Shown piece after piece: positions 1 to 12,200 of a stretch of 64,000 bases of DNA. Numbering within the stretch: the stretch's first letter is position 1; each line of letters begins with the position of its first letter. The position numbers and the translations under genes are program-made. The DNA comes from Terriglobia bacterium (GTDB taxonomy: Bacteria > Acidobacteriota > Polarisedimenticolia > Polarisedimenticolales > CAVOVZ01), in NCBI GenBank assembly GCA_963699985.1, contig CAVOVZ010000028.1, forward strand, positions 32,013 through 96,012, given 5' to 3'. The notes under the pieces were generated by a model. It made no database searches. It had not been told where the DNA came from and was given only the letters and a program-made list of their open reading frames with translations.

Positions 1-1423
1 GTTGTCGAGCGGCGAGCCGTTGGCACCCTCGGGGATCATGTGCGCCTCGGTGCAGAAACACAGCGCGATGCGCAGGCGAGCCCAGGCCACGTCGTGCTTT
101 CCCATCTCGTGCCAGCCGCGCAGCATCTCGAAGAAGTCCTGGGAGCACCCCCCCAGCTGGACGACGCGGTCGACCTCGTCCATCGCGAGGAGAACTCCCT
201 CGGGATGCGCGGCCAGAATCTGATCGTTGACGAGCGCTTGCAGGCTTGTTTCGCGGAGAGCTTCGTGGTCGCGATCTCGACTGCCGCTTCCGGGTCGAGC
301 CCTGCGGCTCGAGCATGGCGCCCGTGAGCTGGACGAGAAGCCTCTTCAGGTCGGACAGCGCGGTGAGGTCGAGTTCATCCTGGAAGTTGAGCTGGATCAC
401 GAGCGGGCCGCCAGGTGCAAGGCGCGCCTGCGACGCGAGGCGCGTCAGAGAGCGAGCTCTTCCCCATCTGGCGCGGGCCCAGGATGTGGACCATCCCCGG
501 GGATTCCGTCATCTCCCGCTCGGCCTCGCCATCGGTCTCGCGCGTCACGTACAGCGCCGATCCCAGCGGACCGTCCCCGTCGGGTGGACCAGCTCGACCG
601 GCCGGGGTGCCCGGGCGGTCGAGCGCGGCACCGGAATCGCGACGCGAGTCGCGGTGGCCATCTCGGCGAGGCGCGTTTCGAGCAGTTCGAGGTCCGTTCG
701 AAGCGCTTCGCATCCCTGGTAACTTCAGCTCGAGCGCATGACAGATGACACGTCGCGCCGCAGGCACGGGCTCGCGACCGGCGGCCGCGAGGACGAGGGC
801 CGCGGATGCCGCGCACGCCGGCGACCCGTGGTCCTCGAGGCTCGTCGGGGAAAGCCCGAGCTTCGCCGCCAACCCCGTCCGCGCGAGCTCCAGCTCAACA
901 GCGGCGTCAGCAGGCGAACGAGATCGTTTCGGAGGTCCGGTTCCAAACCCGGCTCGGGCAACGAAGGCGCGCGAGGACCGTCGGGGATCGTCGGAAAACG
1001 CCTCGGGTCCCTGAGCCCGTAGAGCACGCCCACGAGTTGCCGCAGCCCCTCGGCGTAGGTCGCGTCGTCGTTTTTTCGGAAGTCGACCTGCTGAACCGAG
1101 CCGAGGAAGGGCGGCAACGGCGTGTCCACGAGGAGCGCGAGCTGTACGAGCCTGTCCTGATTCCATCTCGGGTGGGCCGCGCGAAACGCGTCCAGCTCGT
1201 TCTGCACCCAGGGGGACGCGAAGGCCTCCGGGGTCGCGACGAGAACCACCCGGTCGGCGTGCGCGAGACCCTCTTGCAGTCCAGCCACCCAAGAGCATCC
1301 AGTCCCGAGATCCGCCTCGTCGAGCCAGACCGTGCCGGCGCCGAGATGGGTTTCGAGGTCCCGGTGGAGCGCCCGCACCCACTCGCCATACGAACTCGCG
1401 TAGCAGAGAAACGCTGCCCTCAT
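1..1423 (-). pseudogene. TIR domain / helical adaptor-like segment / AAA_35-like P-loop NTPase (STAND-type). The 3' end runs off the window. Frame changes near ~897 and ~455 (pseudogene or assembly indels).
   Basis: ORF 725..1423(-) starts MRAAFLCYASSYGEWVRALHRDL..VWLDEADLGTG..VVLVATPEAFASPWVQNELD, which is TIR-like. The protein continues in the 375..1751(-) frame (..AAVELELARTGLAAKLGLS.., then Walker A MVHILGPRQMGKSSL). Hand translation of the third minus frame over 1-455 gives LTRLASQARLAPGGPLVIQLNFQDE..GVLLAMDEVDRVV (Walker B-like)..FFEMLRGWHEMGK, typical of AAA_35-type NTPases. Confidence 0.75.
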
Positions 1424-1820
1424 CGATGCTCATCATACTGGAAGAAGCGATCGTCGGAAACGCTCCTCGGGAGCCTTTGAAGAAGGGGCTGCCGTCGACT
1501 TCGGGGGCGATACCCGCCGGCGCCCCGCAGCTGCTGCCGAGGTCCACAGGAACGTCTTGCAGGGGCGTTTCGTCGCTGCCATCAGCTCCGGTCGTCGTCC
1601 GGGAACTCCGCAACTCGTGGCGTTTTCGGAGATGAGCCCGGGCCGAGTCGACGCGCAGCAACCGGAGGTGCACTCCAGTCGCGGGGTCCCCGAGGTTCCC
1701 GGGATGCGGCATCGGTGAAGCGCGCCGACGAGACGCCGCAGCCCCTCGCATGGAGATCGGTCGGCCACCGGAGCAGCAACCGGCTGCCTGGGCCCAACGG
1801 GAATCCGCGAAACAAAGCTC

Positions 1821-3395
1821 TCAGTCGGGTCGAATCCGGCTTCGGATCTCCTTGATCAGGACGCCTTCGTTGCAATCCCCTTTGCCGGTCCCTCGTCGGT
1901 ACCCGTGATGGCACGCCACCAGCAGCCACTGGTCGTTGAAGACCGGCGAGCCCGAGTGGCCATGCGTGGTCGGGCTCCGGTAGCGGACGTACGGCCCCTC
2001 GATCCCCAGGAAGTGATTGTCGTACAGGGAAATCGTCAGCTCGCCGCCGGCGGGATGGCCGATGATGTACAGCCGCGGAGGTTCGGCCAGGCCGAGATGA
2101 TTGGGGAGACTCTCCGCGCATGGAAGAGCCTTTACCGGCTCGACGGCTGGCCTCAGCGCCACGATCGCGGTATCGAGCTCCCTCGGTGGATGAAGCCAGA
2201 ACACGATCGATGAGGAACTCGTTCGGCTTTCGAGTCCAGGTGGTGAAGTGGACTCGCGTCGCTCCCGATTCCGCGTTCCTCACGACGTGATGGTTGGTGA
2301 CGAAGAGAACGCGACGCGGATGATCCGGCCACAGATCCTGGGAATCGATGAGGAACCCGCTGCCTTCGGCGCCGCGCGTGCTCTCGACCCGCGCGATCGA
2401 GTGGACCCGGACCATCGCGGTCCTCCACCAGCGGATCGATCGGAACGACTCTCGCCCGAGCACGGCCTCGTAGTCCACCACGCCGTCGTCCGGCGCAGCC
2501 TCGGCCGATCGAGCGTCGAGTTGGACCGAGCTTCCCTCCTTGCGGAGCAGGGCGCCCCTCAGAACGGGCAGCAGCACCCGGCCCGGGTCCTGCGACTCGT
2601 CCATCCCCCAAAGCTCTTCCATCTGCCGCAGGGTCGACGCCAGCTCGAACGCGTCCGCGTGATCGCTCCGGATGTAGCGCTCGACCCAGCCCAGCGCACC
2701 CGTGACGTTCCCGAGTGCCACGCAGGCCTCCATCGCGGTGCCGAAGTCCCACATGTCGGCGGTCTGTTCCTGATCTTTCGCCTCCACCACCGCGAGGATC
2801 CGACCGGCGAGCACTCGGGGGTCGGCGTCGACGCCGGGCGGGACGCGATCCCGCCGCGCCCGATCGAGGAGGGCCACCACGTTGATCCCGTGCCAGACGT
2901 TTCGGTCCGGCATGCGCTGGAAGTCCTCCAGGTAAGAGGACACTGCGAGCCTCAGCGCCTCCGGGGCGTAGGTCGCACCCTGGTCGCGCGCGAGCTCACG
3001 TAGATCTGCTTGTACGCTCGCCCGATCAACCCGCGAACTTCCGGTCCCTCGCTCGGATCGGTCGCGACCCTTTCCGACAGCTCCCGGAGGACCAGGAGCC
3101 CTTCCGCGATCTTCCCCTGGTCGAGCAGTGCCTGGGCGAAGTGGCGGCGCACCACCGGCCCGTCATGGCCGCACCGGATGAACTGGAGCGCCGTCGACTC
3201 GAGGAGGTCGAACCGTCGCTTTCTACGAAGCAGCTTGAGGACCCTGGCGACCTCCGTTTCCGGGTACTTCTCGCCACCGCGCTGAAGACCACGGGCGAGC
3301 TTGCCGCACAGGGACTCGACCGTCTCCCGCTCGAAGGAGTCGAGCGCCGACTTCAGGTCCTTGGCGAAGGGGGAAAGCGACCGGTCGTCAGACAT
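1821..3395 (-). pseudogene. DUF4071 (TRAF-binding-like TPR) domain fused to a trypsin-like serine protease. Frame changes near ~3000 and ~2205.
   Basis: ORF 2952..3530(-) contains MSDDRSLSPFAKDL..AQALLDQGKIAEGL..GLIGRAYKQIY, with GGAGGG ahead of the ATG at 3395. The next frame (1582..2943) continues RELARDQGATYAPEALRLAVSSYLEDFQRMPDRNVWHGINVVAL (DUF4071 hallmark), then GSGFLID..VLFVTNHHVV (His). ORF 1821..2204 supplies ELDTAIVAL (Asp) and THGHSGSPVF (Ser). The catalytic triad is therefore present once the frames are joined. Confidence 0.8.
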
Positions 3396-3542
3396 CGATC
3401 TACCCTCCGGCACGGACTCGAGTTTCGAGCGCGCGCAGCCGACGCGCGCCGTCCTGAAGTCGCGATGATACCTCTCTCCCCCTGCCCCGCGGCGGAGGAA
3501 CGAGCCTCGTTCGCACTGCTGCGGCCACAACGAGCCGTCCCG

Positions 3543-4400
3543 CTAATCCTCACCGGGACTGTTCGTCCTGAATGGGTCGCGAGAGCCGAACCCCCGACGG
3601 TTCAGGTTATTGACGTGCTTCCGGTAGATGTAGCTCACGAGGTCCGTGACCCGGGAGTACCTCGCATCGAAATCGATCGGCCCTGCCAGAGCCTGCGAAA
3701 CCGAGAGTTCGTAAAGGACCGCGCGGCAATCGTCGACGATCTCCTTCCGCAGGACGACCGGCTCCGGATTGTCGGGATGCTTGAAGTACAGCTTCCTCGT
3801 TTCGGTCATGTGCCAGAGGGCCTGCACCTCGGGCGACTCGATCAGCATCCGCTTGGCCTCTTCGAAACTTCCGCAGAGGCCGAACATCATTCCATCCGGT
3901 TTCGGGCTTCGCGACAGGTCGCGATCGAAGAACTGCGGAGGCTCGTCGAGCGCCGCGGTCCAGGGCCGTCCGGTCTCGAACGGCTCGCGGGGTGAACCCG
4001 CGACGACGTCACCCGGAGAGTCGCTCGACGCGAGGCGATTGGCCATCTCGTCGCGGCCCTTCCGGCTCGGCCCCCGAAACAGCGACGCACCGTAGAGCTT
4101 CAGGGAATACGGATGCCACGCGACGACCAGTTCGCGGCCTCGCGTCGCGGGGTGCTCGGATCTGAACTCGAGGCGAAATCGGCTCCATCGTCTGTCCCCG
4201 TCTCCGAGGGCGCGCGGTGCGGCGAGCATCGCGATAGGCACCTGCTCCGCCTGAAACACGAGCACGGGCGGGGTTTCGTCGGAGAGGGCGACCGGCGTTG
4301 CGGTGGCGTGCTGAGGGGTCGGGAGAAAGCCCTCCTCCACGAAGTCGCTGTCGGACGGAAGATGCCGCAGAAACCCGTCGTCGATCTTCAGGAATCCCAT
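3543..4400 (-). CDS. Hypothetical cytoplasmic protein (285 aa), no domain recognised
   Basis: Uninterrupted ORF MGFLKIDDGFLRHLPSDSDF..YIYRKHVNNLNRRGFGSRDPF with a balanced, non-Arg-rich composition. GGAGG lies ~8 nt upstream of the ATG. The gene is co-directional and tightly spaced between the neighbouring minus-strand genes. Confidence 0.6.
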   Translation of the reverse strand: MGFLKIDDGFLRHLPSDSDFVEEGFLPTPQHATATPVALSDETPPVLVFQAEQVPIAMLAAPRALGDGDRRWSRFRLEFRSEHPATRGRELVVAWHPYSLKLYGASLFRGPSRKGRDEMANRLASSDSPGDVVAGSPREPFETGRPWTAALDEPPQFFDRDLSRSPKPDGMMFGLCGSFEEAKRMLIESPEVQALWHMTETRKLYFKHPDNPEPVVLRKEIVDDCRAVLYELSVSQALAGPIDFDARYSRVTDLVSYIYRKHVNNLNRRGFGSRDPFRTNSPGED

Positions 4401-4524
4401 GCGATCCTCCGCTCCGCCAGGGGCGAATCGTACCGCCGTCCGCGCCTCCCGGGCAATCCCAGCGCGGCGCCGCCGCAGGCGATTGCCTTCACGCCACGGC
4501 GGCGCCTTCCAGGGCGCGCGCCTC

Positions 4525-5262
4525 TCACCTCCTGCACGCCCTGATCTGATGCGCGTCCCGGTCCGTGTGGAGCTCGACGTAGAGACCGTCCGCGCGTTCG
4601 AAGATCAGCCGGTACCCCGCAACCGGGTACCTCACGCAGTAGCTCAGCGGCGGCGCCGGGCAACCCACGGCGAGACTGGACCAGGTCACTCGCTCGGCCA
4701 GAACGAGCCGCAGCGACTTCACGTCCGTCGTGAGGTAACGGGCCACGTTCTCGCGAACTTCGAGCGGGAGCGAGTCGACGAAACGGTCCCTTGCGGCGGG
4801 ATTCAGCTTCACCAGGCTCCCGTCGAGATTCGTGCGGGCCTCGTGGATGCGCGACCGGACCCGGAGGATCACACGGTAGCCCGGCACGATGACATCAGGA
4901 TACGACCGCCCCTGCTCGGGAATCCCGAGGGATTCGTTCACCCAGTGGGCGACCGTGTGGTCGACGATCTCGACCCGGGCGCGGCGGACGGAGGCACGGA
5001 GCGCGACGAAGCGCGCCGCGCGCTCGACCGCCATGGGCGGCGGGTCTTCCTTCACGAATACGCCCGGCCACGACGCGGGTGTCTCGATTTGGCCGTGCGC
5101 CAGTCCGTCTTGCCGCGACGGTGGCATCTGCACCTCGACGTTCGCCAGTCCGTCCGCCGGCGGCGCGGGTGTCTCGGCTTCGACCGCGAATGTCGGTGGC
5201 GGCGCGCAAACGATGGCGGCGCAGAACACCGAGAACGGGATGATGGCTCTCCAGGATTTCAT
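4525..5262 (-). CDS. Secreted protein with two copies of a W-x-SLG-x-P..PGYR..L..YE-x-HTD..C repeat (paralog A)
   Basis: The internal start MKSWRAIIPFSVFCAAIVCAPPPTFA is a signal peptide, preceded by AAGGAGG. Repeat 1 is HWVNESLGIPEQGRSYPDVIVPGYRVILRVRSRIHEARTN. Repeat 2 is VTWSSLAVGCPAPPLSYCVRYPVAGYRLIFERADGLYVELHTDRDAHQIRAC. It is a paralog of 7845..8501. Confidence 0.7.
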   Translation of the reverse strand: MKSWRAIIPFSVFCAAIVCAPPPTFAVEAETPAPPADGLANVEVQMPPSRQDGLAHGQIETPASWPGVFVKEDPPPMAVERAARFVALRASVRRARVEIVDHTVAHWVNESLGIPEQGRSYPDVIVPGYRVILRVRSRIHEARTNLDGSLVKLNPAARDRFVDSLPLEVRENVARYLTTDVKSLRLVLAERVTWSSLAVGCPAPPLSYCVRYPVAGYRLIFERADGLYVELHTDRDAHQIRACRR

Positions 5263-5265
5263 GAT

Positions 5266-5325
5266 CGACCTCCTTTTCTGCCGGGAGCCCGATTGCCCCC
5301 GGCATGAGGCCTTGCCGAGTCCCCC
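5266..5325 (-). promoter_or_regulatory. Conserved 5' leader, copy 1 (shared with 8505..8565): hairpin plus Shine-Dalgarno
   Basis: Plus-strand gacctccttttctgccgg..gcccgattgcccccggcatgaggccttgccgagtccccc is near-identical at both loci. Similarity stops abruptly further upstream. The RNA sense reads GGGGGACUCGGCAAGGCCUCAUGCCGGGGGCAAUCGG..CCGGCAGAAAAGGAGGUC-ATG, with a GCCGG(G)/(C)CCGGC stem next to the SD. Confidence 0.5.
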
Positions 5326-5541
5326 GCCCTGCGCCTGGCCTCTCCCGCCGGTGAGGCGCGTCTCGCGGCCCCCAAGGATCGCGATCCGGCCCGAAAGACC
5401 CGATTCGCATCGCGGCTCGCGACCCGCTGCCGCAGCACGAAGGCCCCGGAGCGACTGCCCCTGGCCAGGATCGTCCGTGGTACGCTGGCGCACCGAAAAG
5501 CCATGATTCGCCTGATCGCCACCACCACACCGGGGGAGACG

Positions 5542-5826
5542 ATGACCTACCGACCGCGGCCCATCGACACGACCGGGATCGAGCTCGGCGAGGACCTCGA
5601 CGCGTTGGTTGAAGCCCTCGCCGCGAACGTCCACGAACACTGGTCGGAGCAGCGAATGAGCGAGGGCTGGAGGTACGGGAAAGACCGGGACGACGCCGCG
5701 AAAGCCCATCCCGACCTGGTCCCGTACGATCAGCTGCCGGAATCGGAGAAGGCCTACGACCGCCTCACCGTGGTCCAGACCCTGAAGGCCGTCGTGGCGA
5801 TGGGATACCGCATCGAGAAGGCCTGA
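5542..5826 (+). CDS. Stand-alone RyR (ryanodine-receptor repeat) domain protein, 94 aa
   Basis: MTYRPRPIDTTGIELGEDLDALVEALAANVHEHWSEQRMSEGWRYGKDRDDAAKAHPDLVPYDQLPESEKAYDRLTV matches the RyR-domain pattern (HE-W..R...GW-YG......K-HP-LVPY--LPE-EK-YDR). GGGGGAGA precedes the ATG. Confidence 0.8.
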   Translation: MTYRPRPIDTTGIELGEDLDALVEALAANVHEHWSEQRMSEGWRYGKDRDDAAKAHPDLVPYDQLPESEKAYDRLTVVQTLKAVVAMGYRIEKA

Positions 5827-5911
5827 CGGCGGCGAGCCGCGGCTTCAGCGCGCGCAGGATCGAGCCGATCGTCCGGCGCCTGCGAGACCGATGCGACGGT
5901 GGGAGGATCGC

Positions 5912-7700
5912 ATGGGCGAAAAGCGAGCCGATCACGGATCTGGCAACGGGCGAAACAGGAAGACGCGACGGGGCCCGAGATCGACCGAGAAGCTGAGCAG
6001 GCTCCGCGCGCTGGTCTGCCGGCTGGGGCAGATGTGCACGCGACTGGCCCAGTTCGGTCAGTCGGCGTCACCCGAGATGTCTGCGACGGTCGCCGCGTGC
6101 GCGAAGAGCGCCCTCGCCGTCGCGAACGAGCTGGATCCACCCTCCGGAGCGGTCGCTCCAGCACCGAGGAGGAGGGCCGCGCGCGATCGCGACGAAGGCA
6201 TCACGGCCGCGGCGCATCTCGAGGCCGTCTCGCGACGGATCCTGGAATCCGCGGTCCTCCGCAAGGATCCCGACCTGCATTTCGACTTGGGTCTCGCGTT
6301 CAAGGAGATCGAGGAGTACGAAAAGGCCGAGACGCACCTGCGCATCGCCACCACGCGGCGGCCGTCGAACGAGCGGACTTTCCAGCAGCTCGCGATCTGC
6401 CTCGGACGGCTGGGACGGCTGGAAGACGCGCTGGGCATTCTCTCCGATCTCGATCGGGACCGGCCCGGATCCTCCGAGACGCTGGGGCTGCTCGGCCGCG
6501 TCCACAAGGACCTGTGGCTGCGCGAGAGGAAGCTCCACAGACTAAATCGGCACCACCTGGAGCGGGCGGTCCGCTGCTACGAGGCGGGCTTCCGGAAGAA
6601 CCCGACCGACTTCTATCCGGGCGTCAACGCCGTGACGCTCCGAAGCTTCCTGTCCGGCACGGGAGCGCAGGGGCGATCGGCAGGACTCGCAGCCAAGGTC
6701 CTGGCCGCCTGCGAAATCGACACGACGTTCGGCACCGACGATTTCTGGGCTTGGGCTGCGGCGGGCGAGGTTCACATCGCGTGCGACCGGTTCGACGAGG
6801 CGCTGCTGGCTTACGAGCGTGCGCTCGAGTGCCGCCACACGCCGTTCATGCGAACGTCGGCGCTGCGGCAGCTCGTGCTGATCCGCGACGAGCGAGAGTC
6901 TCGACGCGCAGATCGACCCGATCATCCGGCGCCTCGAGGCGCCCTCGCGGCCGGACGAGATCTCGCCGCGGTTCATTCGCTGGCTGGCCAGCGAGTACTC
7001 GGCGCACCGGCGAAAGGCTCCGAGCGTGGCGGTCAAGGGATACGACCTGGGCCAGAGGGTCCTGCCGGCCCTGGGATTGTCGGCGGACCTGCTGTTCGTG
7101 CGCGCGGACGAGCGGACCCTCCGGGTGGGGCTGGTGGACATCCGGGGCAAGGGGCCAGGCGCCGCGATGCTCGCGCACCTCGCGGAGGGGATTCTCGAAT
7201 CGGCACGCCCGGGCGAGACGCCGAAGGCGACGATGGAGCGGCTGAACAACGCCCTCGAGAGACACTCCTGTCCCAGCGCCGGCGCGCTGCTCGACGTCAC
7301 CCTGGGAACGAGGAGCGTACGCTGCGTGCGCGCGGGGCTGCCGGAGTTGCTGATCTTCGACTCCGCGACGGGAAACCACCGGCACCACGCGGAGGGCGGC
7401 CCACCGCTGGGCTTCCTGCGAGACCCGGAATTCCCGCAGGCCAGCTTCCGCTTGGCACCGTCCGAGACGCTCGTGATCGTTTCGGACGGAATCACGGAAG
7501 CGGCCCCTCCCGGCGATGAAGGGCAGGCGCAGTTCGGCTACGACGGGATCCTGCGCCAGCTCCGCGGAAAGGAAAAGGCAACGCGGTCCGCGCAAAGCCT
7601 CGCCGACGACATCGTCCAGGCCGCTCGGGAGTTCTGCCACGATCGGCGGGACCGGGACGACATGACGGCGTTCGTGTTGAAGGCTCGTCCGCCCGCGTGA
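5912..7700 (+). pseudogene. TPR/DUF4071 domain fused to a PP2C-type (SpoIIE) phosphatase. One frame change near ~6898.
   Basis: ORF 5891..7519 carries TPR-like LGLAFKEIEEYEKAETHL and the DUF4071 hallmark GLLGRVHKDLW..FYPGVNAVTL up to ..LRQLVLIRDERES. Hand translation in the 7026 frame then continues LDAQIDPIIRRLEAP..VAVKGYDLG..VDIRGKGPGAAML..GGPPLGF..LVIVSDGITE..DRDDMTAFVLK, which are SpoIIE/PP2C motifs. GGGAGGA precedes the ATG at 5912; the exact start is uncertain. Confidence 0.75.
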
Positions 7701-7844
7701 TCCGATGCCGCCGGTGCGGCACCCGGATCCGCGAGGCGACCGCTGGGCCGGCCGGTCGCCCGAGAATACCGCCGCCGCAGCCGAGCCGGGTGCCCCGGTG
7801 CTCGGACTGCGGCGGCTTCGTCCCCGCCCCTCGCGGAGACCTAC

Positions 7845-8501
7845 CTATCTACACGTGACGATCCTCGCCGCCACGAGATCGGTGTGGACCTCGTACAGCC
7901 GTCCCGTTCCCGTCCGCAGGATCAGCCGGTATCCGGGGACGATCACCGGGAGGTAGAAGCGTCCGCGCCTCGAACACCCGAGCGAGGTGTCGGACCACTC
8001 GAGGCGCCTCGACTCGATGAGCTGGAGCGAGCCGACCGGCACGTCCAGATGTCGTGCGACGCGCGAGAGGACGGAGAACGATACCGTCTCCGGGAATCCG
8101 GAGCCGTCGAGCTCCGGGCGATCCAGCGGATCGGTCTTCACGCGGAGCCCCTCGCGATCCGTGTGGACCTCGTAGATTCGCTGCCCCGCGCGGAGGAACA
8201 CACGGTGGCCGGGCGTGAGCACCGGCAGGTACATATACATGGGCTCGGGGAATCCGAGCGACGAATCCGACCACGTGACCTCGCAGGAGCACACGACGGA
8301 GACGAAACGCAGCGGCACTCCGAGGCGGGACGCGAGGTGCGCGGCGGCACGCTCCGCCGCGAGCGGCGGGGGCCCGCAGGACGAGCTCGCGGGTGGAATC
8401 GCGAGCGACGGAGTGGATGGGATCGACTGCGCCTGCACCTCGGTGACGCACGACGCGACGGCGAGGACCAGCAGGACTGCGGCAACTCTCCTGGCTCTCA
8501 T
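7845..8501 (-). CDS. Secreted double-repeat protein (paralog B of 4525..5262)
   Basis: Signal peptide MRARRVAAVLLVLAVASCVTEVQA. Repeats are VTWSDSSLGFPEPMYMYLPVLTPGHRVFLRAGQRIYEVHTDREG and LEWSDTSLGCSRRGRFYLPVIVPGYRLILRTGTGRLYEVHTDLVAARIVTC. The long N-terminal extension in ORF 7845..8822 is purine-tract read-through and was not used. Confidence 0.7.
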   Translation of the reverse strand: MRARRVAAVLLVLAVASCVTEVQAQSIPSTPSLAIPPASSSCGPPPLAAERAAAHLASRLGVPLRFVSVVCSCEVTWSDSSLGFPEPMYMYLPVLTPGHRVFLRAGQRIYEVHTDREGLRVKTDPLDRPELDGSGFPETVSFSVLSRVARHLDVPVGSLQLIESRRLEWSDTSLGCSRRGRFYLPVIVPGYRLILRTGTGRLYEVHTDLVAARIVTCR

Positions 8502-8504
8502 GGC

Positions 8505-8565
8505 TGACCTCCTTTTCTGCCGGCGGGGCCGATTGCCCCCGGCATGAGGCCTTGCCGAGTCCCCC
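8505..8565 (-). promoter_or_regulatory. Conserved 5' leader, copy 2
   Basis: Same ~60-nt block as 5266..5325, directly upstream of the paralogous gene, including AAAAGGAGGTC before the ATG. Confidence 0.5.
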
Positions 8566-8689
8566 TTTTGCCGCGGGGAGCGGATGCCGGGTCGCAGGAA
8601 CGGGCCGGTTGCGGACAGCCGAAACTCGCGCAACACACCGCAGTTCGAATGGCCCGTGCGCTGGCGAGTTTGGGTTCGTGTCCCCGACT

Positions 8690-9170
8690 TGCCTCTGCTT
8701 CCTGCTTCCTCCCGCTTCCTGCTTCCTCCCGCGGCTCTCCGCCCCCTTGGCTTCCTTCGCTCGCCCCTTCTCCCCCCTTCGCTTCTCTGCTCTCGCCTCC
8801 TCTTCTCGTCTCTTCTCTTCACTTCTCTCCGATCCGCTGCTCCCCCCTCGCCCGCTCTCCCGTCCCCCCGGCTCTTCTCCGGCCCTCGCCTCTACGTCCC
8901 ATCCGCTCTCCGCTCCCCTCTCCCCCTTGCTCTCCGCCCCCCCCTGCCCGTTTTCGCTCGCTCCTCTTCACCCATCCGCTCCGCTACTCTCGCCGCCTCT
9001 TCTCTTCGCCTGCCTTCTCTGCTCTCCGATCCGCTGATCACCGCTCGCCCGCTCTCCCCGGCGCCTCTCCGCCACAGCGCGGCAGCCCTCGCCGCGCCGC
9101 CCCTCTTCTCCCACGCGCGCGCTGCGACACCTCCTTCCCCGCCGCGCCGGGCCCGGGCATAATCGAGCTC
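8690..9170. repeat. ~480-bp polypyrimidine (C/T) tract on the plus strand, almost devoid of A, in a divergent intergenic region
   Basis: Runs such as cttcctgcttcctcccgcttcctgcttcctccc...ctcttctcgtctcttctcttcacttctctcc. All three plus frames are open, giving Pro/Ser/Leu-rich pseudo-ORFs (8544.., 8552.., 8584..). An internal ~200-bp-spaced repeat ctctccgatccgctg..ctcgcccgctctccc occurs at ~8825 and ~9023. Confidence 0.85.
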
Positions 9171-9200
9171 GCCCGATCATCGGAACCGCCGAGGGACCAG

Positions 9201-12200
9201 GTGCCGACCAGCGAAGACGGCAAGCCGCCCACGCTCTTCGTGAGCTACAACCACCAGGACGCGGCCGAGGTCGAGGCGGTCGTCGCCGAGCTGCGCGCGG
9301 AGGGCATCGAGGTCCTCTTCGACCGATCGTCGTTCGAGCTGGGCCTTCCCTGGCGCGACCAGGCGGAGCGGGCGCTCCGATCGTGCAGCGCCGTTCTGGT
9401 GTTCCTCGGTCGCAGCGGGATCGGGCCGGAGCAGAAGCAAGAACGGGACATGGCCCTGTCCCGTGCGAACAGGGAACTGGGCTTCCGGGTGATCCCAGTT
9501 TTGCTCCAGGGCGCCGATCCGCCGGGCGACTTCCTGAGCGAGCGGGCCGGGGTCGATCTCGCGAAAGCCCCGGACCGCGGGGCAGCGATCCGCGCGATCG
9601 CGGCGGCGGTCCGGCGCGAGCCTCCCTCGGCCGAGCAGACCCGGCTGGCGAAGGAGGCTCGGGAGGCGATTTGCCCCTACCGCGGATTGAAGCACTTCCG
9701 CGAGGAGGACGCCTCGCTCTTCTTCGGCCGCGAAACCTACACCGAAGACCTCGTCCGGAAGGTGCGCGACCACTCGATCGTCGTCGTCGAGGGGGCCTCG
9801 GGACGCGGCAAGTCCTCGATCGTGCGCGCCGGCCTCGTCCCGTTCCTCCGCAACGACCCGTCCGGCACGAGCTGGGACATCGCCATGATGACTCCCAGGG
9901 ATCGCCCGTTCTACTACCTCGCCGAGGCGCTCCTGCCGATCCGCGAGGACATCCGCGACGGCGTCGCCTTCGACGCGAAGGCCGAGGACCTGAGCAATCT
10001 GCTCCGGGAGCGGAAGGAGAAGCTGCGCGACGTGGCCGACCACGCGCTGGCGCGTCGCGGGCCGTCCCGCCGCCGCCTCCTGGTCGTCGTCGATCAGTGG
10101 GAGGAGCTGTACACCCTCTGCGAGCGCGACGCGGAGCGCGACGACTTCATCGAGATGCTCCTCGACGCCACCGCGAACGGGCCGGTCCAGGTCGTTCTCA
10201 CCGTCCGCGCGGACTTCGCCGGCCGCCTCTCCGACCATCGCGCCCTCAACGACCGGACCAACGACGCCAGGCTCAGCCTGGGCCCGATGAACCGCGACGA
10301 GCTGGGGCGGGTGATCGCCGAGCCGGCCCGCGTCGCCGGCCTGACGCTCGAGCAGGGTCTCGCGGAGTGGATCCTCGGCGAGGTCGGAAGCGACGCGGAC
10401 AGCCTGCCGCTCCTCGGCTTCACCCTCGCGGAGCTGTGGCGCCTCCGGAAGGACAGCACGCTCACGCACGCCGCGTACGAGAAGATGGAAGGCGTCAAGG
10501 GGTCCATCACCCACCACGCGGACGCGGTGCTCCAATCCCTCGGAAAGGACGACCGCGAGCGCCTCCGACGCCTTTTCCTGAACCACCTCGTCAGGCCCGG
10601 CGACAGGACGGAGGACACCAGCCGCCGAGCCCCCCTCGCGCAGCTCGACCCGCCGATGCTGTCCCTCGCCCGCAAGCTCGCCGACGAGCGCCTCGTCGTG
10701 ATCTCGCGCGAGAAGGCCGCGGGCAGCGAAACCGTGCAGGTCGTCCACGAGACTTTGATTCGCGGCTGGAAATCCCTGAAGGAGTGGCTGGACGCGGACC
10801 GCGAGTTCGCCTCGTGGCGCGAGCGGCTGCGGCGGGGGATGGCGGACTGGGAGGACCGAGGCCGGCGCGACGTCGCGCTGCTGCGAGACGACGACCTCGC
10901 CGATGCGCGCCGCTGGCTGGCGCGCCGGCGCGAGGACCTGAGCGAAGCCGAGAGAGACTTCGTCGAAGCGAGCGCTCGGCGGGAGCGGCGGGCGCGGACG
11001 CGCCGGTGGGCCGCGGCGGCCGCGATCGGGGTGACGCTCGCGGCGGCCGGGGGATTCGCCGTGGTGACCGAGATGAGGCGGGTGGAGGACCAGGCGAAAA
11101 GGTTGTGCATTGAGGTGACGACGACTTCGAAACCCTGGGCAGTCGTCGCGCTACTTCGTGACGCAAAGCGCGATTTGCCCGTCGTCGAATACCACGGTCT
11201 TGCCCGGTGCGTGCTGGAGAGGAATGAGCCGTGGGACGGATTCGAGTCGCTCCCCGTCTTCGGACCGAAGCCTGTCTATGTTCGTCCCGGCGACGTCTTC
11301 GACGCGGTCGAGCTGATGCTGCCGAGCGCGAAGCCTGCGGACGTCGATGACGTGCAGCTCATCGCGTCCCTGCTGTGGGCGCTCGACTACTCCCGGCCTC
11401 GACGGCTCGCTTGACGAGCCGTATCTGAGGCTGAGATCGAGCGCCGAAGACACGCTCCATGCGGCATTCGGCCCCCCTGGGGCGGGGTTGATCAAGAAAG
11501 ACGCCTGGGTTCGCGTCGGCGGCCGCTCGTTCCGGATGGGGAGCGAGGCCAGAGATCAGGTGGCCGATGGTGACGAGTGGCCGGCGCACGATGTGACCCT
11601 GTCTTGGTTCGAGATCCTCCGGCATGAGGTCTCGGAGGCCGAGTGGCGCGCGTTTCGCGGGTCGGTCCCCGAGCAGCCGAACATCGAATCTCGGCATGAC
11701 GGTGAGCTTCCGGTGATTGGTGTGACCTGGTACCAGGCGTACGCGTTCGCGGCGTGGCTGACGCCCGGCGGCCGCCTCCCGACGGAGGCGGAGTGGGAGC
11801 ACGCGGCGCGCGGCGGACACGACGGCCGGCAGTATCCGTGTGAGGGGGAAACGGTTTGTGGGGGTTCGACCTGTCTCGCGAACGTCCGCGAGGCCGAAAT
11901 CCAGGGTCGGACTCCCGTTTGCTACGGAAGGTTCAAACCGAACGACTTCGGGCTCTGCGACATGGCCGGCAACGTGTGGGAGTGGACGGCAGATTGGTAC
12001 GCGCCATACGCGGACGAAAAACAGACCGACCCGCGTGGCCCCCCCCGGAATAATGATGAGGCAACAACCCACGGCCGGGCGCGCGTGATCCGGGGCGGGA
12101 GCTTCGACTACGAGGGCTGGGTCGCTCGCTGCGCGGACCGCCTCTACGGGTTCGCGTGGGACAGGGACGGGTCCCTCGGCTTCCGCGTCGTGCGCCCCGC

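What the first reader, a model, noticed from the sequence alone, without database searches (positions are those of the whole stretch)
1..5325. Co-directional four-gene module: secreted double-repeat protein, orphan 285-aa protein, DUF4071-trypsin protease, TIR-adaptor-AAA NTPase
The genes at 5262->4525, 4400->3543, 3395->1821 and 1423->1 are on one strand with 120-400-nt gaps. The module combines an exported repeat protein, an orphan cytoplasmic protein, a protease effector with an intact catalytic triad once frames are joined, and a TIR-NTPase. The TIR-NTPase has an internal helical segment (VELELARTGLAAKLGLS) that resembles the effector-associated/Death-like adaptor domains proposed to couple effectors to NTPases. 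The secreted repeat (PGYR..YE-HTD..C) superficially resembles small protease-inhibitor folds, so an inhibitor/protease pairing is conceivable; that idea is speculative. The combination is not one I recognise as a named defence system.
Basis: partly seen in the sequence, partly recalled or inferred. Interest (0 to 1): 0.62.

Follow-up and report, generated by a model that had tools for sequence, protein, structure and literature searches.

The report
Swappable protease-effector cassette beside TIR sensor
The four genes are not one module: they are a common secreted protein, a swappable two-gene cassette (an unknown protein plus a signal-sensing trypsin protease whose relatives sit beside gasdermin and other cell-killing enzymes), and a TIR immune-sensor gene, which makes the unknown protein a candidate new protease-activated immune effector.

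Summary
All four minus-strand genes exist at the stated coordinates, but they are not one conserved module.

- **Repeat protein (5262->4525).** It belongs to a large uncharacterised exported family (8,924 cluster representatives). Other members mostly lie in unrelated contexts. A conserved hairpin follows the gene, and similarity to a relative's locus stops just after it.
- **Orphan plus TPR-S-trypsin (window 1476-4462).** This is a discrete cassette. A syntenic metagenome locus carries a very divergent pair, inverted, in the same slot.
- **Protease relatives.** Full-length homologues occur in many phyla. The gene directly upstream varies: an alpha/beta-hydrolase in 50 of 80 loci, and elsewhere a gasdermin, amidase, nuclease or PLD. 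TIR genes lie within 5 kb in 23 of 80 loci.
- **Proposed mechanism (inferred).** The orphan is a new occupant of a protease-activated effector slot. The neighbouring TIR-AAA_35 NTPase is the likely signal generator.
- **TIR-AAA_35.** Its stop overlaps the start of the next gene downstream, so it is probably coupled to that gene, not to the cassette.
- **Effector-associated-domain idea.** No support was found.
- **Inhibitor idea.** It conflicts with predicted localisation: the repeat protein is exported, the protease cytoplasmic.
- **Frameshifts.** Most are absent from a 97%-identical contig, so they are probably assembly errors.

The parts
4525..5262 (-). repA: exported 245-aa protein with two ~82-aa alpha+beta repeats (W..SLGxP..PGYR..YE.HTD..C). 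Member of a large uncharacterised family; probably not part of the immune cassette.
   Evidence: ORF and repeats. 8,924 representative clusters at E<=1e-3. No Pfam or PDB sequence match. AF2 model pLDDT 82. Contexts of other members.
5263..5322 (-). ~60-nt leader shared by repA and its paralogue repB (8501->7845). It is predicted to fold so that the Shine-Dalgarno sequence is paired.
   Evidence: Alignments. Only two copies in the genome. Fold z-score -3.4 for copy A and -1.4 for copy B. No Rfam match.
4466..4506 (-). GC-rich hairpin just after the repA stop, conserved in L002. Similarity to L002 ends right after it (at 4463). Possible terminator or stabiliser that marks the end of the repA unit.
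   Evidence: Fold. blastn break points. The consensus scan found no U-tail terminator.
1476..4462 (-). Replaceable two-gene cassette (orphan -> TPR-S-trypsin). In L002 the same slot holds a 4.3-kb inverted cassette with a 474-aa distant homologue of the orphan followed by a Trypsin-TPR-S protein.
   Evidence: tblastx and blastn synteny breaks. Gene list of L002. Orphan versus the 474-aa protein: E 2e-6, 26% identity. The block is nearly identical to L016 while the flanks differ by 2-13%.
3543..4400 (-). Orphan 285-aa protein: candidate protease-activated effector (or substrate/regulator) in the slot directly upstream of the protease.
   Evidence: Intact ORF. The only homologue found anywhere is P0003, the L002 474-aa protein. 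No bGSDM or other family hit. AF2 model uninformative, pLDDT 41.
1821..3395 (-). TPR-S (MAP3K_TRAF_bd/DUF4071) + Trypsin_2 serine protease, about 525 aa, with no signal peptide. As assembled it has two frame changes, near 2997 and 2185.
   Evidence: Pfam on pieces and on the joined reading. Frames. L016 reads through the 2185 site. Full-length homologues with the same layout.
1..1423 (-). TIR - helical linker - AAA_35 STAND-type NTPase, about 617 codons, continuing 427 nt beyond the window start. As assembled it has about 7 frame changes. Its stop overlaps the GTG start of the next gene, an AAA_35...FGE-sulfatase gene.
   Evidence: Pfam. Frame map against the intact 620-aa L002 orthologue. L016 reads it in two frames only. 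Start/stop overlap. The TIR motif WVQNELD, Walker A GPRQMGKSS and Walker B LLAMDEVD can be read in the sequence.
7845..8501 (-). repB: 218-aa paralogue of repA (38% identity), divergent from the TIR-nSTAND1-FGE gene. It shows that the repeat family occurs twice in this island.

Best explanation
The region holds three independent units, not one module.

**Unit 1: repA.** An exported two-repeat protein of a widespread uncharacterised family, with its own leader and 3' hairpin.

**Unit 2: the cassette at window 1476-4462.** It encodes the 285-aa orphan followed by a cytoplasmic TPR-S-trypsin protease.
- Shown: the protease belongs to a widespread family in which the gene directly upstream on the same strand is a variable slot.
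- Shown: that slot holds typical cell-killing or cell-damaging enzymes. These are an alpha/beta-hydrolase in most loci, and gasdermin, cell-wall amidase, nuclease, PLD or phosphoesterase in others.
- Inferred: the TPR-S domain holds the protease inactive until it binds a signal. The protease then cleaves and activates the product of the upstream gene. Here that product is the orphan, a new kind of occupant of the effector slot.
- Shown: the orphan and protease are exchanged together between strains, as a pair.

**Unit 3: the TIR-AAA_35 NTPase.** Its stop overlaps the start of a downstream AAA_35...FGE-sulfatase gene, so the two are probably translationally coupled.
- Inferred: it is the infection sensor whose TIR domain makes the ADP-ribose-derived signal.
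- Inferred: the signal is read by the island's TPR-S proteins (this protease and the neighbouring TPR-S-PP2C phosphatase) and is tuned by the RyR-domain protein.

**Frameshifts.** Most frameshifts in the protease and TIR-NTPase genes are probably consensus errors of the assembly, not real decay.
For: **Cassette**
- Synteny with L002 is continuous except at window 1411-4493. By blastn the breaks are at 4463 and 1475.
- L002 has a 474-aa gene followed by a Trypsin-TPR-S gene in that slot, on the opposite strand.
- The orphan matches the 474-aa protein at E 2e-6. The TPR-S parts are 25% identical. Flanking genes are 60-99% identical.
- Against L016, the block from about 4500 to 900 has at most 2 mismatches per 500 nt, while the flanks have 11-65.

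**Effector slot**
- Homologues with the same layout (TPR-S about 78-180, Trypsin_2 about 346-499) occur in 4 of 400 genomes of the phylum. There are 469 hits across many phyla.
- An alpha/beta-hydrolase lies directly upstream on the same strand in 50 of 80 loci, with gaps of -55 to +170 nt for most.
- The upstream gene is bGSDM in G378 (PADLOC E 1.2e-80).
- Other occupants are Amidase_2, Trypsin-Endonuclease_NS, Trypsin-PLD and Metallophos.
- In G017, Endonuclease_NS is fused to TPR-S-trypsin and a TIR gene lies upstream.

**TIR link**
- TIR ORFs lie within about 5 kb in 23 of 80 loci. The window's own 6.4-Mb genome has 13 in total.

**Literature**
- Gasdermin is replaced by nuclease or phospholipase effectors in protease-based systems (PMC10312443).
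- A nuclease proenzyme is activated by its partner trypsin-like protease (PMC12799240).
- The Thoeris VIII effector ThsI carries the TPR that Aravind predicted to act in TIR signalling, and it responds to cADPR (bioRxiv 10.64898/2025.12.03.692087).
- RyR domains bind or cleave cADPR signals (PMC13232231).

**Frameshifts**
- L016 is 96.75% identical over 16 kb. It reads TIR-AAA_35 residues 8-369 and 373-613 in two frames, so it is in frame at 6 of the window's 7 sites.
- L016 has its own 14 private indel events in repA, which is intact in the window.
Against: - No cleavage, toxicity or signal has been measured.
- The orphan has only one known relative, no recognisable fold (pLDDT 41) and no predicted membrane or enzyme motif. 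Its role as effector rests on position alone.
- 57 of 80 homologous loci have no TIR within 5 kb. Separately, three of the four phylum-sample loci, including the gasdermin locus L018, have no TIR within 7 kb. TPR-S may therefore sense something else.
- I could not confirm that the ThsI TPR is the Pfam TPR-S family.
- The L002 protease has the opposite domain order, and its trypsin domain shows no BLASTP similarity to the window's.
- One protease frame change (near 2997) is also present in L016 and could be real.
- A 397-nt gap and a swapped boundary separate the protease from the TIR gene. Nothing ties the TIR gene specifically to this cassette.
Confidence: 0.5

Rival explanations
1. One reading: one four-gene defence operon, in which the exported repeat protein inhibits or regulates the trypsin protease and an EAD/Death-like segment couples the TIR-NTPase to the protease.
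For: - All four genes point the same way, and the order is kept in the 97%-identical contig L016.
- The repeat fold has weak Foldseek resemblance to PepSY and propeptide-type domains: 4k90_B, 5boi, 2gu3, with E 0.07-0.6.
- Two family members also carry Emfourin or I42 inhibitor domains.
Against: - In L002 the cassette is inverted and replaced, while repA and the TIR gene stay in place.
- repA has a signal peptide and the protease has none, so they are predicted to be in different compartments.
- Four of five other family members sampled lie in housekeeping contexts.
- There is no Pfam EAD or Death hit at E<=10.
- The linker domain's only paralogue is in another TIR-NTPase.
- A conserved hairpin follows repA.
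Confidence: 0.05
2. The locus is a truly decayed defence island. The TIR-NTPase and protease are pseudogenes in this strain, so nothing works here, whatever the ancestral system did.
For: - There are about 7 frame changes in TIR-AAA_35 and 2 in the protease.
- Frame breaks are concentrated in accessory genes of this genome (earlier notes).
- The break near 2997 is seen in both the window and L016.
- The window's private indels fall in the segments that also carry the most substitutions relative to L016.
Against: - Six of the seven TIR-AAA_35 breaks are absent from L016.
- No stop codons appear in the tracked frames, and each frame piece is 43-70% identical to the L002 orthologue.
- L016 has a mirror-image set of private 1-nt indels in genes that are intact in the window.
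- Indels against mismatches are 30:138 over 5.9 kb, and nearly all indels are 1 nt.
- TIR-AAA_35 differences from L016 are 15 synonymous against 19 non-synonymous codons, which is not the neutral ratio.
Confidence: 0.27
3. The trypsin protease is itself the effector and degrades cell proteins indiscriminately once activated, like the caspase-like ThsE. The orphan would then be a regulator, an inhibitor (antitoxin-like) or a trigger-binding adaptor, not a cleaved effector.
For: - Signal-activated indiscriminate proteases are known in type IV Thoeris.
- The orphan shows no enzyme or pore motif and a mainly helical C-terminal half.
- Some homologous loci have TIR or TPR-S proteins, not an enzyme, directly upstream.
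Against: - In most homologous loci the upstream gene is an enzyme or pore-former typical of effectors: hydrolase, gasdermin, amidase, nuclease or PLD.
- In G017 a nuclease is fused to the protease.
- There is experimental precedent for protease-activated partners (PMC12799240, PMC10312443).
Confidence: 0.22
4. The cassette is a self-contained two-gene system of the gasdermin-protease kind. Its TPR region senses a phage protein directly, and its position next to the TIR-NTPase is only defence-island clustering.
For: - The gasdermin locus and the two hydrolase loci from the phylum sample have no TIR within 7 kb.
- 57 of 80 loci have no TIR within 5 kb.
- The cassette is exchanged independently of the TIR-AAA_35 body.
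Against: - 29% of loci have a TIR within 5 kb, far above a rough background of about 2% per 10 kb even in this TIR-rich genome.
- The island also holds TPR-S-PP2C, RyR and three more TIR genes.
- ThsI gives a precedent for a TPR domain in the perception of cADPR.
Confidence: 0.3

Closest known systems
Bacterial gasdermin systems (bGSDM plus adjacent trypsin-like or caspase-like protease; Johnson et al. 2022, and the CARD-protease systems of Wein et al., PMC10312443)
   Same: - A pro-effector gene lies directly upstream of a dedicated protease that carries a repeat/sensor region.
- A 37%-identical protease with the same domain layout sits 132 nt downstream of a true bGSDM in G378.
- Replacement of gasdermin by other effectors is documented.
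   Different: - The upstream protein here is not a gasdermin: no bGSDM match and no similarity to the G378 protein.
- The sensor part is TPR-S, not CARD plus an NLR-like ATPase.
- Cleavage has not been tested.
Thoeris-type TIR signalling with a TPR-bearing effector (type VIII ThsI; bioRxiv 10.64898/2025.12.03.692087), and type IV with a signal-activated protease (ThsE)
   Same: - A TIR protein lies next to an effector that carries the TPR family predicted to act in TIR signalling.
- A protease acts as the output.
- An RyR-domain protein, a domain known to bind or cleave cADPR, lies in the same island.
   Different: - The TIR is fused to a STAND-type AAA_35 NTPase and is not a free ThsB.
- The output would be a two-step cascade (protease, then partner protein).
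- No signal molecule is known.
- TIR adjacency holds for only 29% of homologous loci.
Nuclease-protease pairs acquired by Hachiman, AVAST and canu loci (PMC12799240)
   Same: - A trypsin-like protease and its partner gene travel and co-evolve as a pair, and they plug into different sensors.
- The partner is an inactive pro-form until cleaved.
- Homologues of the window's protease are paired or fused with Endonuclease_NS.
   Different: - The partner here is an orphan with no nuclease motif.
- The protease carries its own TPR-S sensor domain.
NTP-dependent conflict systems with effector-associated domains and DGR-diversified STAND-FGS receptors (Kaur et al. 2020 PMC7159879; 2021 PMC8195603; Dore et al. 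2024 PMC10907252)
   Same: - The island content matches: TIR, STAND NTPases, FGE-sulfatase (CLec-type) heads, trypsin effector.
- L002 carries the DGR genes bAvd and RT.
   Different: - No EAD pair links the NTPase to the protease.
- The protease carries TPR-S, not an EAD.

Membership tests
Bacterial gasdermin system | A gasdermin (bGSDM) gene | tested here: not met
   The orphan and its L002 homologue have no PADLOC bGSDM hit. The same model scores 1.2e-80 on the G378 neighbour. blastp and HMM searches of the orphan against that protein found nothing.
Bacterial gasdermin system | A dedicated protease encoded next to the effector, homologous to gasdermin-linked proteases | tested here: met
   The window's protease is 37% identical over its full length to the G378 protease that follows bGSDM. 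The Pfam layout is the same.
Bacterial gasdermin system | The protease cleaves and activates the neighbouring protein | not testable with these tools
   This needs co-expression or in-vitro cleavage.
Thoeris-like TIR signalling | A TIR-domain protein with the catalytic glutamate motif | tested here: met
   TIR_2 E 4.3e-21. The motif ...SPWVQNELD... is present in the window and as ...SEWVRSELD... in L002. That this glutamate is the catalytic one is from general knowledge of TIR NADases.
Thoeris-like TIR signalling | An effector with a signal-binding domain, encoded beside the TIR gene | tested here: inconclusive
   TPR-S is present, and a TIR gene lies within 5 kb in 23 of 80 homologous loci. 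The TPR of ThsI was not compared directly, and binding is untested.
Thoeris-like TIR signalling | A TIR-made nucleotide activates the effector | not testable with these tools
   Biochemistry is needed.
EAD/Death-like adaptor coupling (Kaur et al.) | The same adaptor domain occurs on the NTPase and on an effector in the neighbourhood or genome | tested here: not met
   There is no Pfam EAD or Death hit for the linker or for the protease N-termini at E<=10. tblastn of the linker finds one other copy, in a TIR-NACHT-FGE protein on C26, and none on an effector.
S1/Trypsin_2 serine protease | Complete domain with the His-Asp-Ser triad | tested here: met
   Trypsin_2 positions 1-143 of 144, E 9.8e-18, on the joined reading. 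The motifs TNHHV, LDTAIV and GHSGSP are visible. L016 encodes this part as one open frame.
STAND-type AAA_35 NTPase | AAA_35 domain with Walker A and Walker B | tested here: met
   AAA_35 hits on the pieces and a full-length hit, E 2e-61, on the L002 orthologue. GPRQMGKSS and LLAMDEVD are present.
Protease-inhibitor fold (PepSY / propeptide / I78-like) for the repeat protein | Significant sequence or structure match to an inhibitor family | tested here: inconclusive
   There is no Pfam, NCBIfam or PDB sequence match. The best Foldseek E-value is 2.7e-3 (amine-oxidase N-domains). PepSY and propeptide hits have E 0.07-0.6 and TM about 0.2 for the whole two-domain model.

The most novel reading that the evidence does not exclude
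The orphan family would be a new proteolytically activated cell-death effector. The TPR-S-trypsin family would be a general relay that turns a TIR-made nucleotide signal into cleavage of whichever executioner is encoded upstream: alpha/beta-hydrolase, gasdermin, amidase, nuclease, PLD or this orphan. That would be a two-tier cascade (TIR to protease to executioner) joining Thoeris-type signalling to gasdermin-type activation. Strains would exchange the effector-protease pair as a cassette.
Probability: 0.3. Interest if true: 0.8.

Novelty: new variant of a known kind. Interest (0 to 1): 0.6.

Why it matters
If the reading holds, three things follow.

- **A possible trigger for some gasdermin-type proteases.** I know of no defined trigger for the stand-alone bacterial gasdermin-protease pairs (from memory, not checked here). 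For the gasdermin-linked proteases of this family, the trigger could be a nucleotide read by the TPR-S domain.
- **A widespread, testable two-gene unit.** An effector followed by TPR-S-trypsin, most often an alpha/beta-hydrolase, occurs across many phyla. PADLOC v2 does not recognise it.
- **A new effector family.** The orphan was found only by its position in the slot.

The locus also shows two strains from one metagenome sample carrying different effector-protease pairs at the same site. That is the pattern expected under phage-driven diversifying selection.

On method, it shows that clustered frameshifts in accessory islands of this MAG should not be read as pseudogenes without reads.

Tried and rejected
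**Orphan**
- The word-indexed search of 5.8 billion proteins found nothing with the orphan alone. With the two-sequence profile it found only the L002 protein.
- A six-frame profile search of 400 genomes of the phylum gave only marginal hits. The one I examined (L006) was a sugar epimerase/decarboxylase, that is, a false positive.
- Degenerate-pattern scans of metagenome and genome contigs found nothing.
- A PDB profile search found nothing meaningful.
- The AF2 model was too poor to search with.

**Repeat domain**
- It has no Pfam, NCBIfam or PADLOC hit and no PDB sequence match with a 45-sequence profile.
- Foldseek on the whole model gave only weak hits. I could not submit a single-repeat model.

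**RNA and regulatory signals**
- Rfam gave nothing on 1-12000.
- The promoter/terminator consensus scan gave no more than chance.

**Adaptor idea**
- Pfam at E<=10 and a genome-wide tblastn gave no support.

**Tools and papers not available**
- Burroughs & Aravind 2020 (which I recall from memory as the source of the TPR-S definition; one search confirms only that it is the cited prediction for this TPR domain) and Johnson et al. 2022 are not held in the library.

**Other**
- A gasdermin search among the 80 best protease loci found none. The gasdermin pairing rests on one genome of the phylum sample.

Full report
**1. What is there**

The window is C28:32013-96012 of a 6.4-Mb, 68% G+C genome in 30 contigs. 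Four genes lie on the minus strand with gaps of 124, 147 and 397 nt.

- **repA (5262->4525).** This is an intact 245-aa ORF with a signal-type N-terminus and two ~82-aa repeats.
- **The orphan (4400->3543).** This is an intact 285-aa ORF with no Pfam, NCBIfam or PADLOC family above threshold.
- **The protease gene (3395->1821).**
  - It is read in three frame pieces.
  - Joined for search only, it gives TPR-S at 78-178, MAP3K_TRAF_bd (the former DUF4071), and a complete Trypsin_2 domain at 346-496.
  - The His, Asp and Ser motifs are present.
- **The TIR gene.**
  - It starts at 1423 and continues 427 nt beyond the window start.
  - Against the intact 620-aa orthologue of a related contig, it reads TIR, a helical linker and AAA_35 through about seven frame changes.

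**2. The four genes are not one unit**

repA has one close homologue in 5.8 billion proteins. Its contig, L002 (ENA ERZ25039459 contig_76818), is syntenic with the window over about 15 kb. The shared genes are:

- TIR-nSTAND1-FGE;
- repB;
- TPR-S-PP2C;
- RyR;
- repA;
- TIR-AAA_35;
- the AAA_35...FGE gene.

L002 additionally carries the DGR genes bAvd and a reverse transcriptase.

The only stretch without similarity is window 1411-4493. By blastn, similarity stops at 4463 and resumes at 1475. In L002 that slot holds 4.3 kb on the opposite strand: a 474-aa gene followed 40 nt later by a 704-aa Trypsin-TPR-S protein.

- The orphan is a distant homologue of the 474-aa protein (E 2e-6, 26% identity over 263 residues).
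- The TPR-S parts are 25% identical.
- The flanking genes are 60-99% identical.

So the orphan and the protease are replaced together, as a pair, between fixed flanks.

Other evidence agrees:

- repA is followed by a GC-rich hairpin (4466-4506) that is conserved in L002.
- The TIR-AAA_35 stop overlaps the GTG start of the next gene downstream (the same arrangement is seen in L002).
- A third contig from the same sample, L016, is 96.75% identical to the window and has the window's cassette. Against L016, the block from about 4500 to 900 is nearly identical, while both flanks differ by 2-13%. This is a recombination mosaic.

**3. The repeat protein**

A profile of single repeats finds 8,924 representative clusters at E<=1e-3, typically with 2-7 repeats behind a signal or lipoprotein peptide.

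- All named members that I looked up are called "hypothetical", apart from two evident misnomers.
- The domain is in neither Pfam nor the PDB by sequence.
- The AF2 model (pLDDT 82) shows each repeat as a helix packed on three or four antiparallel strands.
- Foldseek gives only weak hits: amine-oxidase N-domains, a fungalysin propeptide, and the YpeB/YpmB PepSY domains.
- Of five other members whose contexts I read, four lie among housekeeping genes and one lies next to a CHAT-STAND gene.
- The family is absent from 60 related genomes.

The protein is exported and the protease is cytoplasmic, so the proposed inhibitor-protease pairing is very unlikely. A general extracellular inhibitor role for the family remains possible. 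Two members also carry Emfourin or I42 domains.

**4. The protease family and its upstream slot**

Full-length homologues of the protease (34-40% identity, same layout) occur in 4 of 400 genomes of the phylum. There are 469 hits in the species-representative collection. These include Acidobacteriota, Bacteroidota, Planctomycetota, Verrucomicrobiota, Pseudomonadota, Actinomycetota, Gemmatimonadota and others.

I called ORFs in the best 80 loci and classified the gene directly upstream on the same strand.

| Upstream gene or arrangement | Where |
|---|---|
| One alpha/beta-hydrolase family, gaps mostly -55 to +170 nt | 50 of 80 loci |
| N-acetylmuramoyl-L-alanine amidase | 4 loci |
| Trypsin-Endonuclease_NS | 1 locus |
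| Trypsin-PLD | 1 locus |
| Metallophosphoesterase | 1 locus |
| TIR or TPR-S proteins | several loci |
| True gasdermin (PADLOC bGSDM E 1.2e-80), 132 nt upstream | G378 (phylum sample) |
| The same hydrolase family | G009, G224 (phylum sample) |
| Endonuclease_NS fused to TPR-S-trypsin, with a TIR gene upstream | G017 (phylum sample) |

The orphan family is in none of these loci. TIR ORFs lie within about 5 kb in 23 of the 80 loci. The window's own, TIR-rich genome has 13 in 6.4 Mb, roughly 2% per 10 kb.

**5. Mechanism**

*Shown*
- The pair is exchanged as a unit.
- The protease family has a polymorphic upstream slot filled with enzymes and a pore-former typical of abortive-infection effectors.
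- TIR genes are enriched nearby.
- The island also holds TPR-S-PP2C, RyR and further TIR-STAND genes.

*From the literature*
- Gasdermins are activated by a neighbouring protease, and in related protease systems the gasdermin is replaced by nucleases or phospholipases (PMC10312443).
- A nuclease proenzyme is activated by its partner trypsin-like protease, and the pair moves between unrelated sensors (PMC12799240).
- ThsI of type VIII Thoeris carries the TPR that Burroughs and Aravind predicted to act in TIR signalling, and it responds to cADPR.
- RyR domains bind or cleave cADPR signals (PMC13232231).

*Inferred*
- The TIR-AAA_35 protein senses infection and makes an ADP-ribose-derived signal.
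- TPR-S binds the signal and releases the trypsin domain.
- The protease cleaves the orphan, which then harms the cell.

Every step of that chain is untested here, and the orphan's own activity is unknown.

**6. The adaptor idea**

The helical segment between TIR and NTPase is a real, conserved domain, 53% identical between the window and L002.

- It matches no Pfam EAD or Death model, even at E<=10.
- Its only other copy in the genome lies between a TIR and a NACHT NTPase on contig C26, next to a reverse transcriptase.
- No effector carries it, so the defining "same adaptor on both partners" test fails.

**7. The frameshifts**

Between the window and L016 there are 30 indel events against 138 mismatches in 5.9 kb. 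Nearly all indels are single bases.

- L016 reads TIR-AAA_35 residues 8-369 and 373-613 in just two frames. It is therefore in frame at six of the window's seven break sites.
- L016 also reads through the protease break near 2185.
- Conversely, L016 has 14 private indel events in repA and two in the orphan, both of which are intact in the window.
- Only the break near 2997 is seen in both contigs.
- Earlier notes report the same region-restricted pattern elsewhere in this genome.

I read this as consensus error in strain-variable, probably low-coverage parts of a long-read metagenome assembly. I give that about 70%, and real decay about 30%. Intact copies of both genes exist in related contigs.

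**8. Verdict**

What is interesting is narrower and different. It is a swappable effector-protease cassette whose protease belongs to a widespread family linked to gasdermin and hydrolase genes, with an orphan in the effector slot, sitting in a TIR/TPR-S/RyR signalling island.

Noticed in passing
L017-L100 (e.g. L017:8377-9318 and 6662-8329; L019:8220-9329 and 6620-8362): A conserved two-gene unit, an alpha/beta-hydrolase (~300-340 aa) followed directly by TPR-S-trypsin, occurs in 50 of the 80 best loci across many phyla. A TIR gene of ~410-470 aa is often nearby. PADLOC v2 recognises neither protein. This looks like a widespread uncharacterised candidate defence system in its own right.
   Followed up: partly
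window 5263-5322 and 8502-8562 (minus strand); L002 9940-10000 and 6607-6667: The ~60-nt leader is nearly identical in front of repA and repB in both strains, although the coding parts are only 38% identical. It is predicted to fold into a hairpin that pairs GGCCUC with the GAGGUC of the ribosome-binding site. The inner stem differs between the A and B copies. There is no Rfam match.
   Followed up: partly
L002 and L016 (both ENA ERZ25039459): Two contigs from one metagenome sample carry the same island with different cassettes in the slot between repA and TIR-AAA_35. Against the window, similarity is mosaic: repB is ~99.5% identical to L002, while repA is 67-76% and TIR-AAA_35 about 40-70% identical.
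   Followed up: partly
genome contig C26:8421-12344 (minus) and 5294-6550 (minus): A second TIR - linker - NACHT-type NTPase - FGE-sulfatase gene lies next to a reverse-transcriptase ORF. It is probably another DGR-diversified receptor locus, and here it still has its RT.
   Followed up: no
L002:11156-13270 (minus), residues ~530-704: The L002 protease has the order Trypsin - TPR-S, plus a C-terminal ~170-aa domain with no Pfam match. Its N-terminal trypsin resembles those of Avs1b and RT-protease systems in PADLOC (E 3e-12 and 5e-9).
   Followed up: no
L010:4188-7700 (Anaerolineae MAG GCA_016931695.1): One other member of the repeat family lies convergent to a CHAT-AAA-TPR STAND gene with a small 92-aa gene between them. 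This is the only other hint that the repeat family might sometimes accompany conflict genes.
   Followed up: no
window ~890, ~450 and ~2994: Three of the frame-change sites lie in or beside the palindrome GAGCTC. If the assembly comes from nanopore reads, a methylated motif could be a systematic source of these errors. This was not tested.
   Followed up: no
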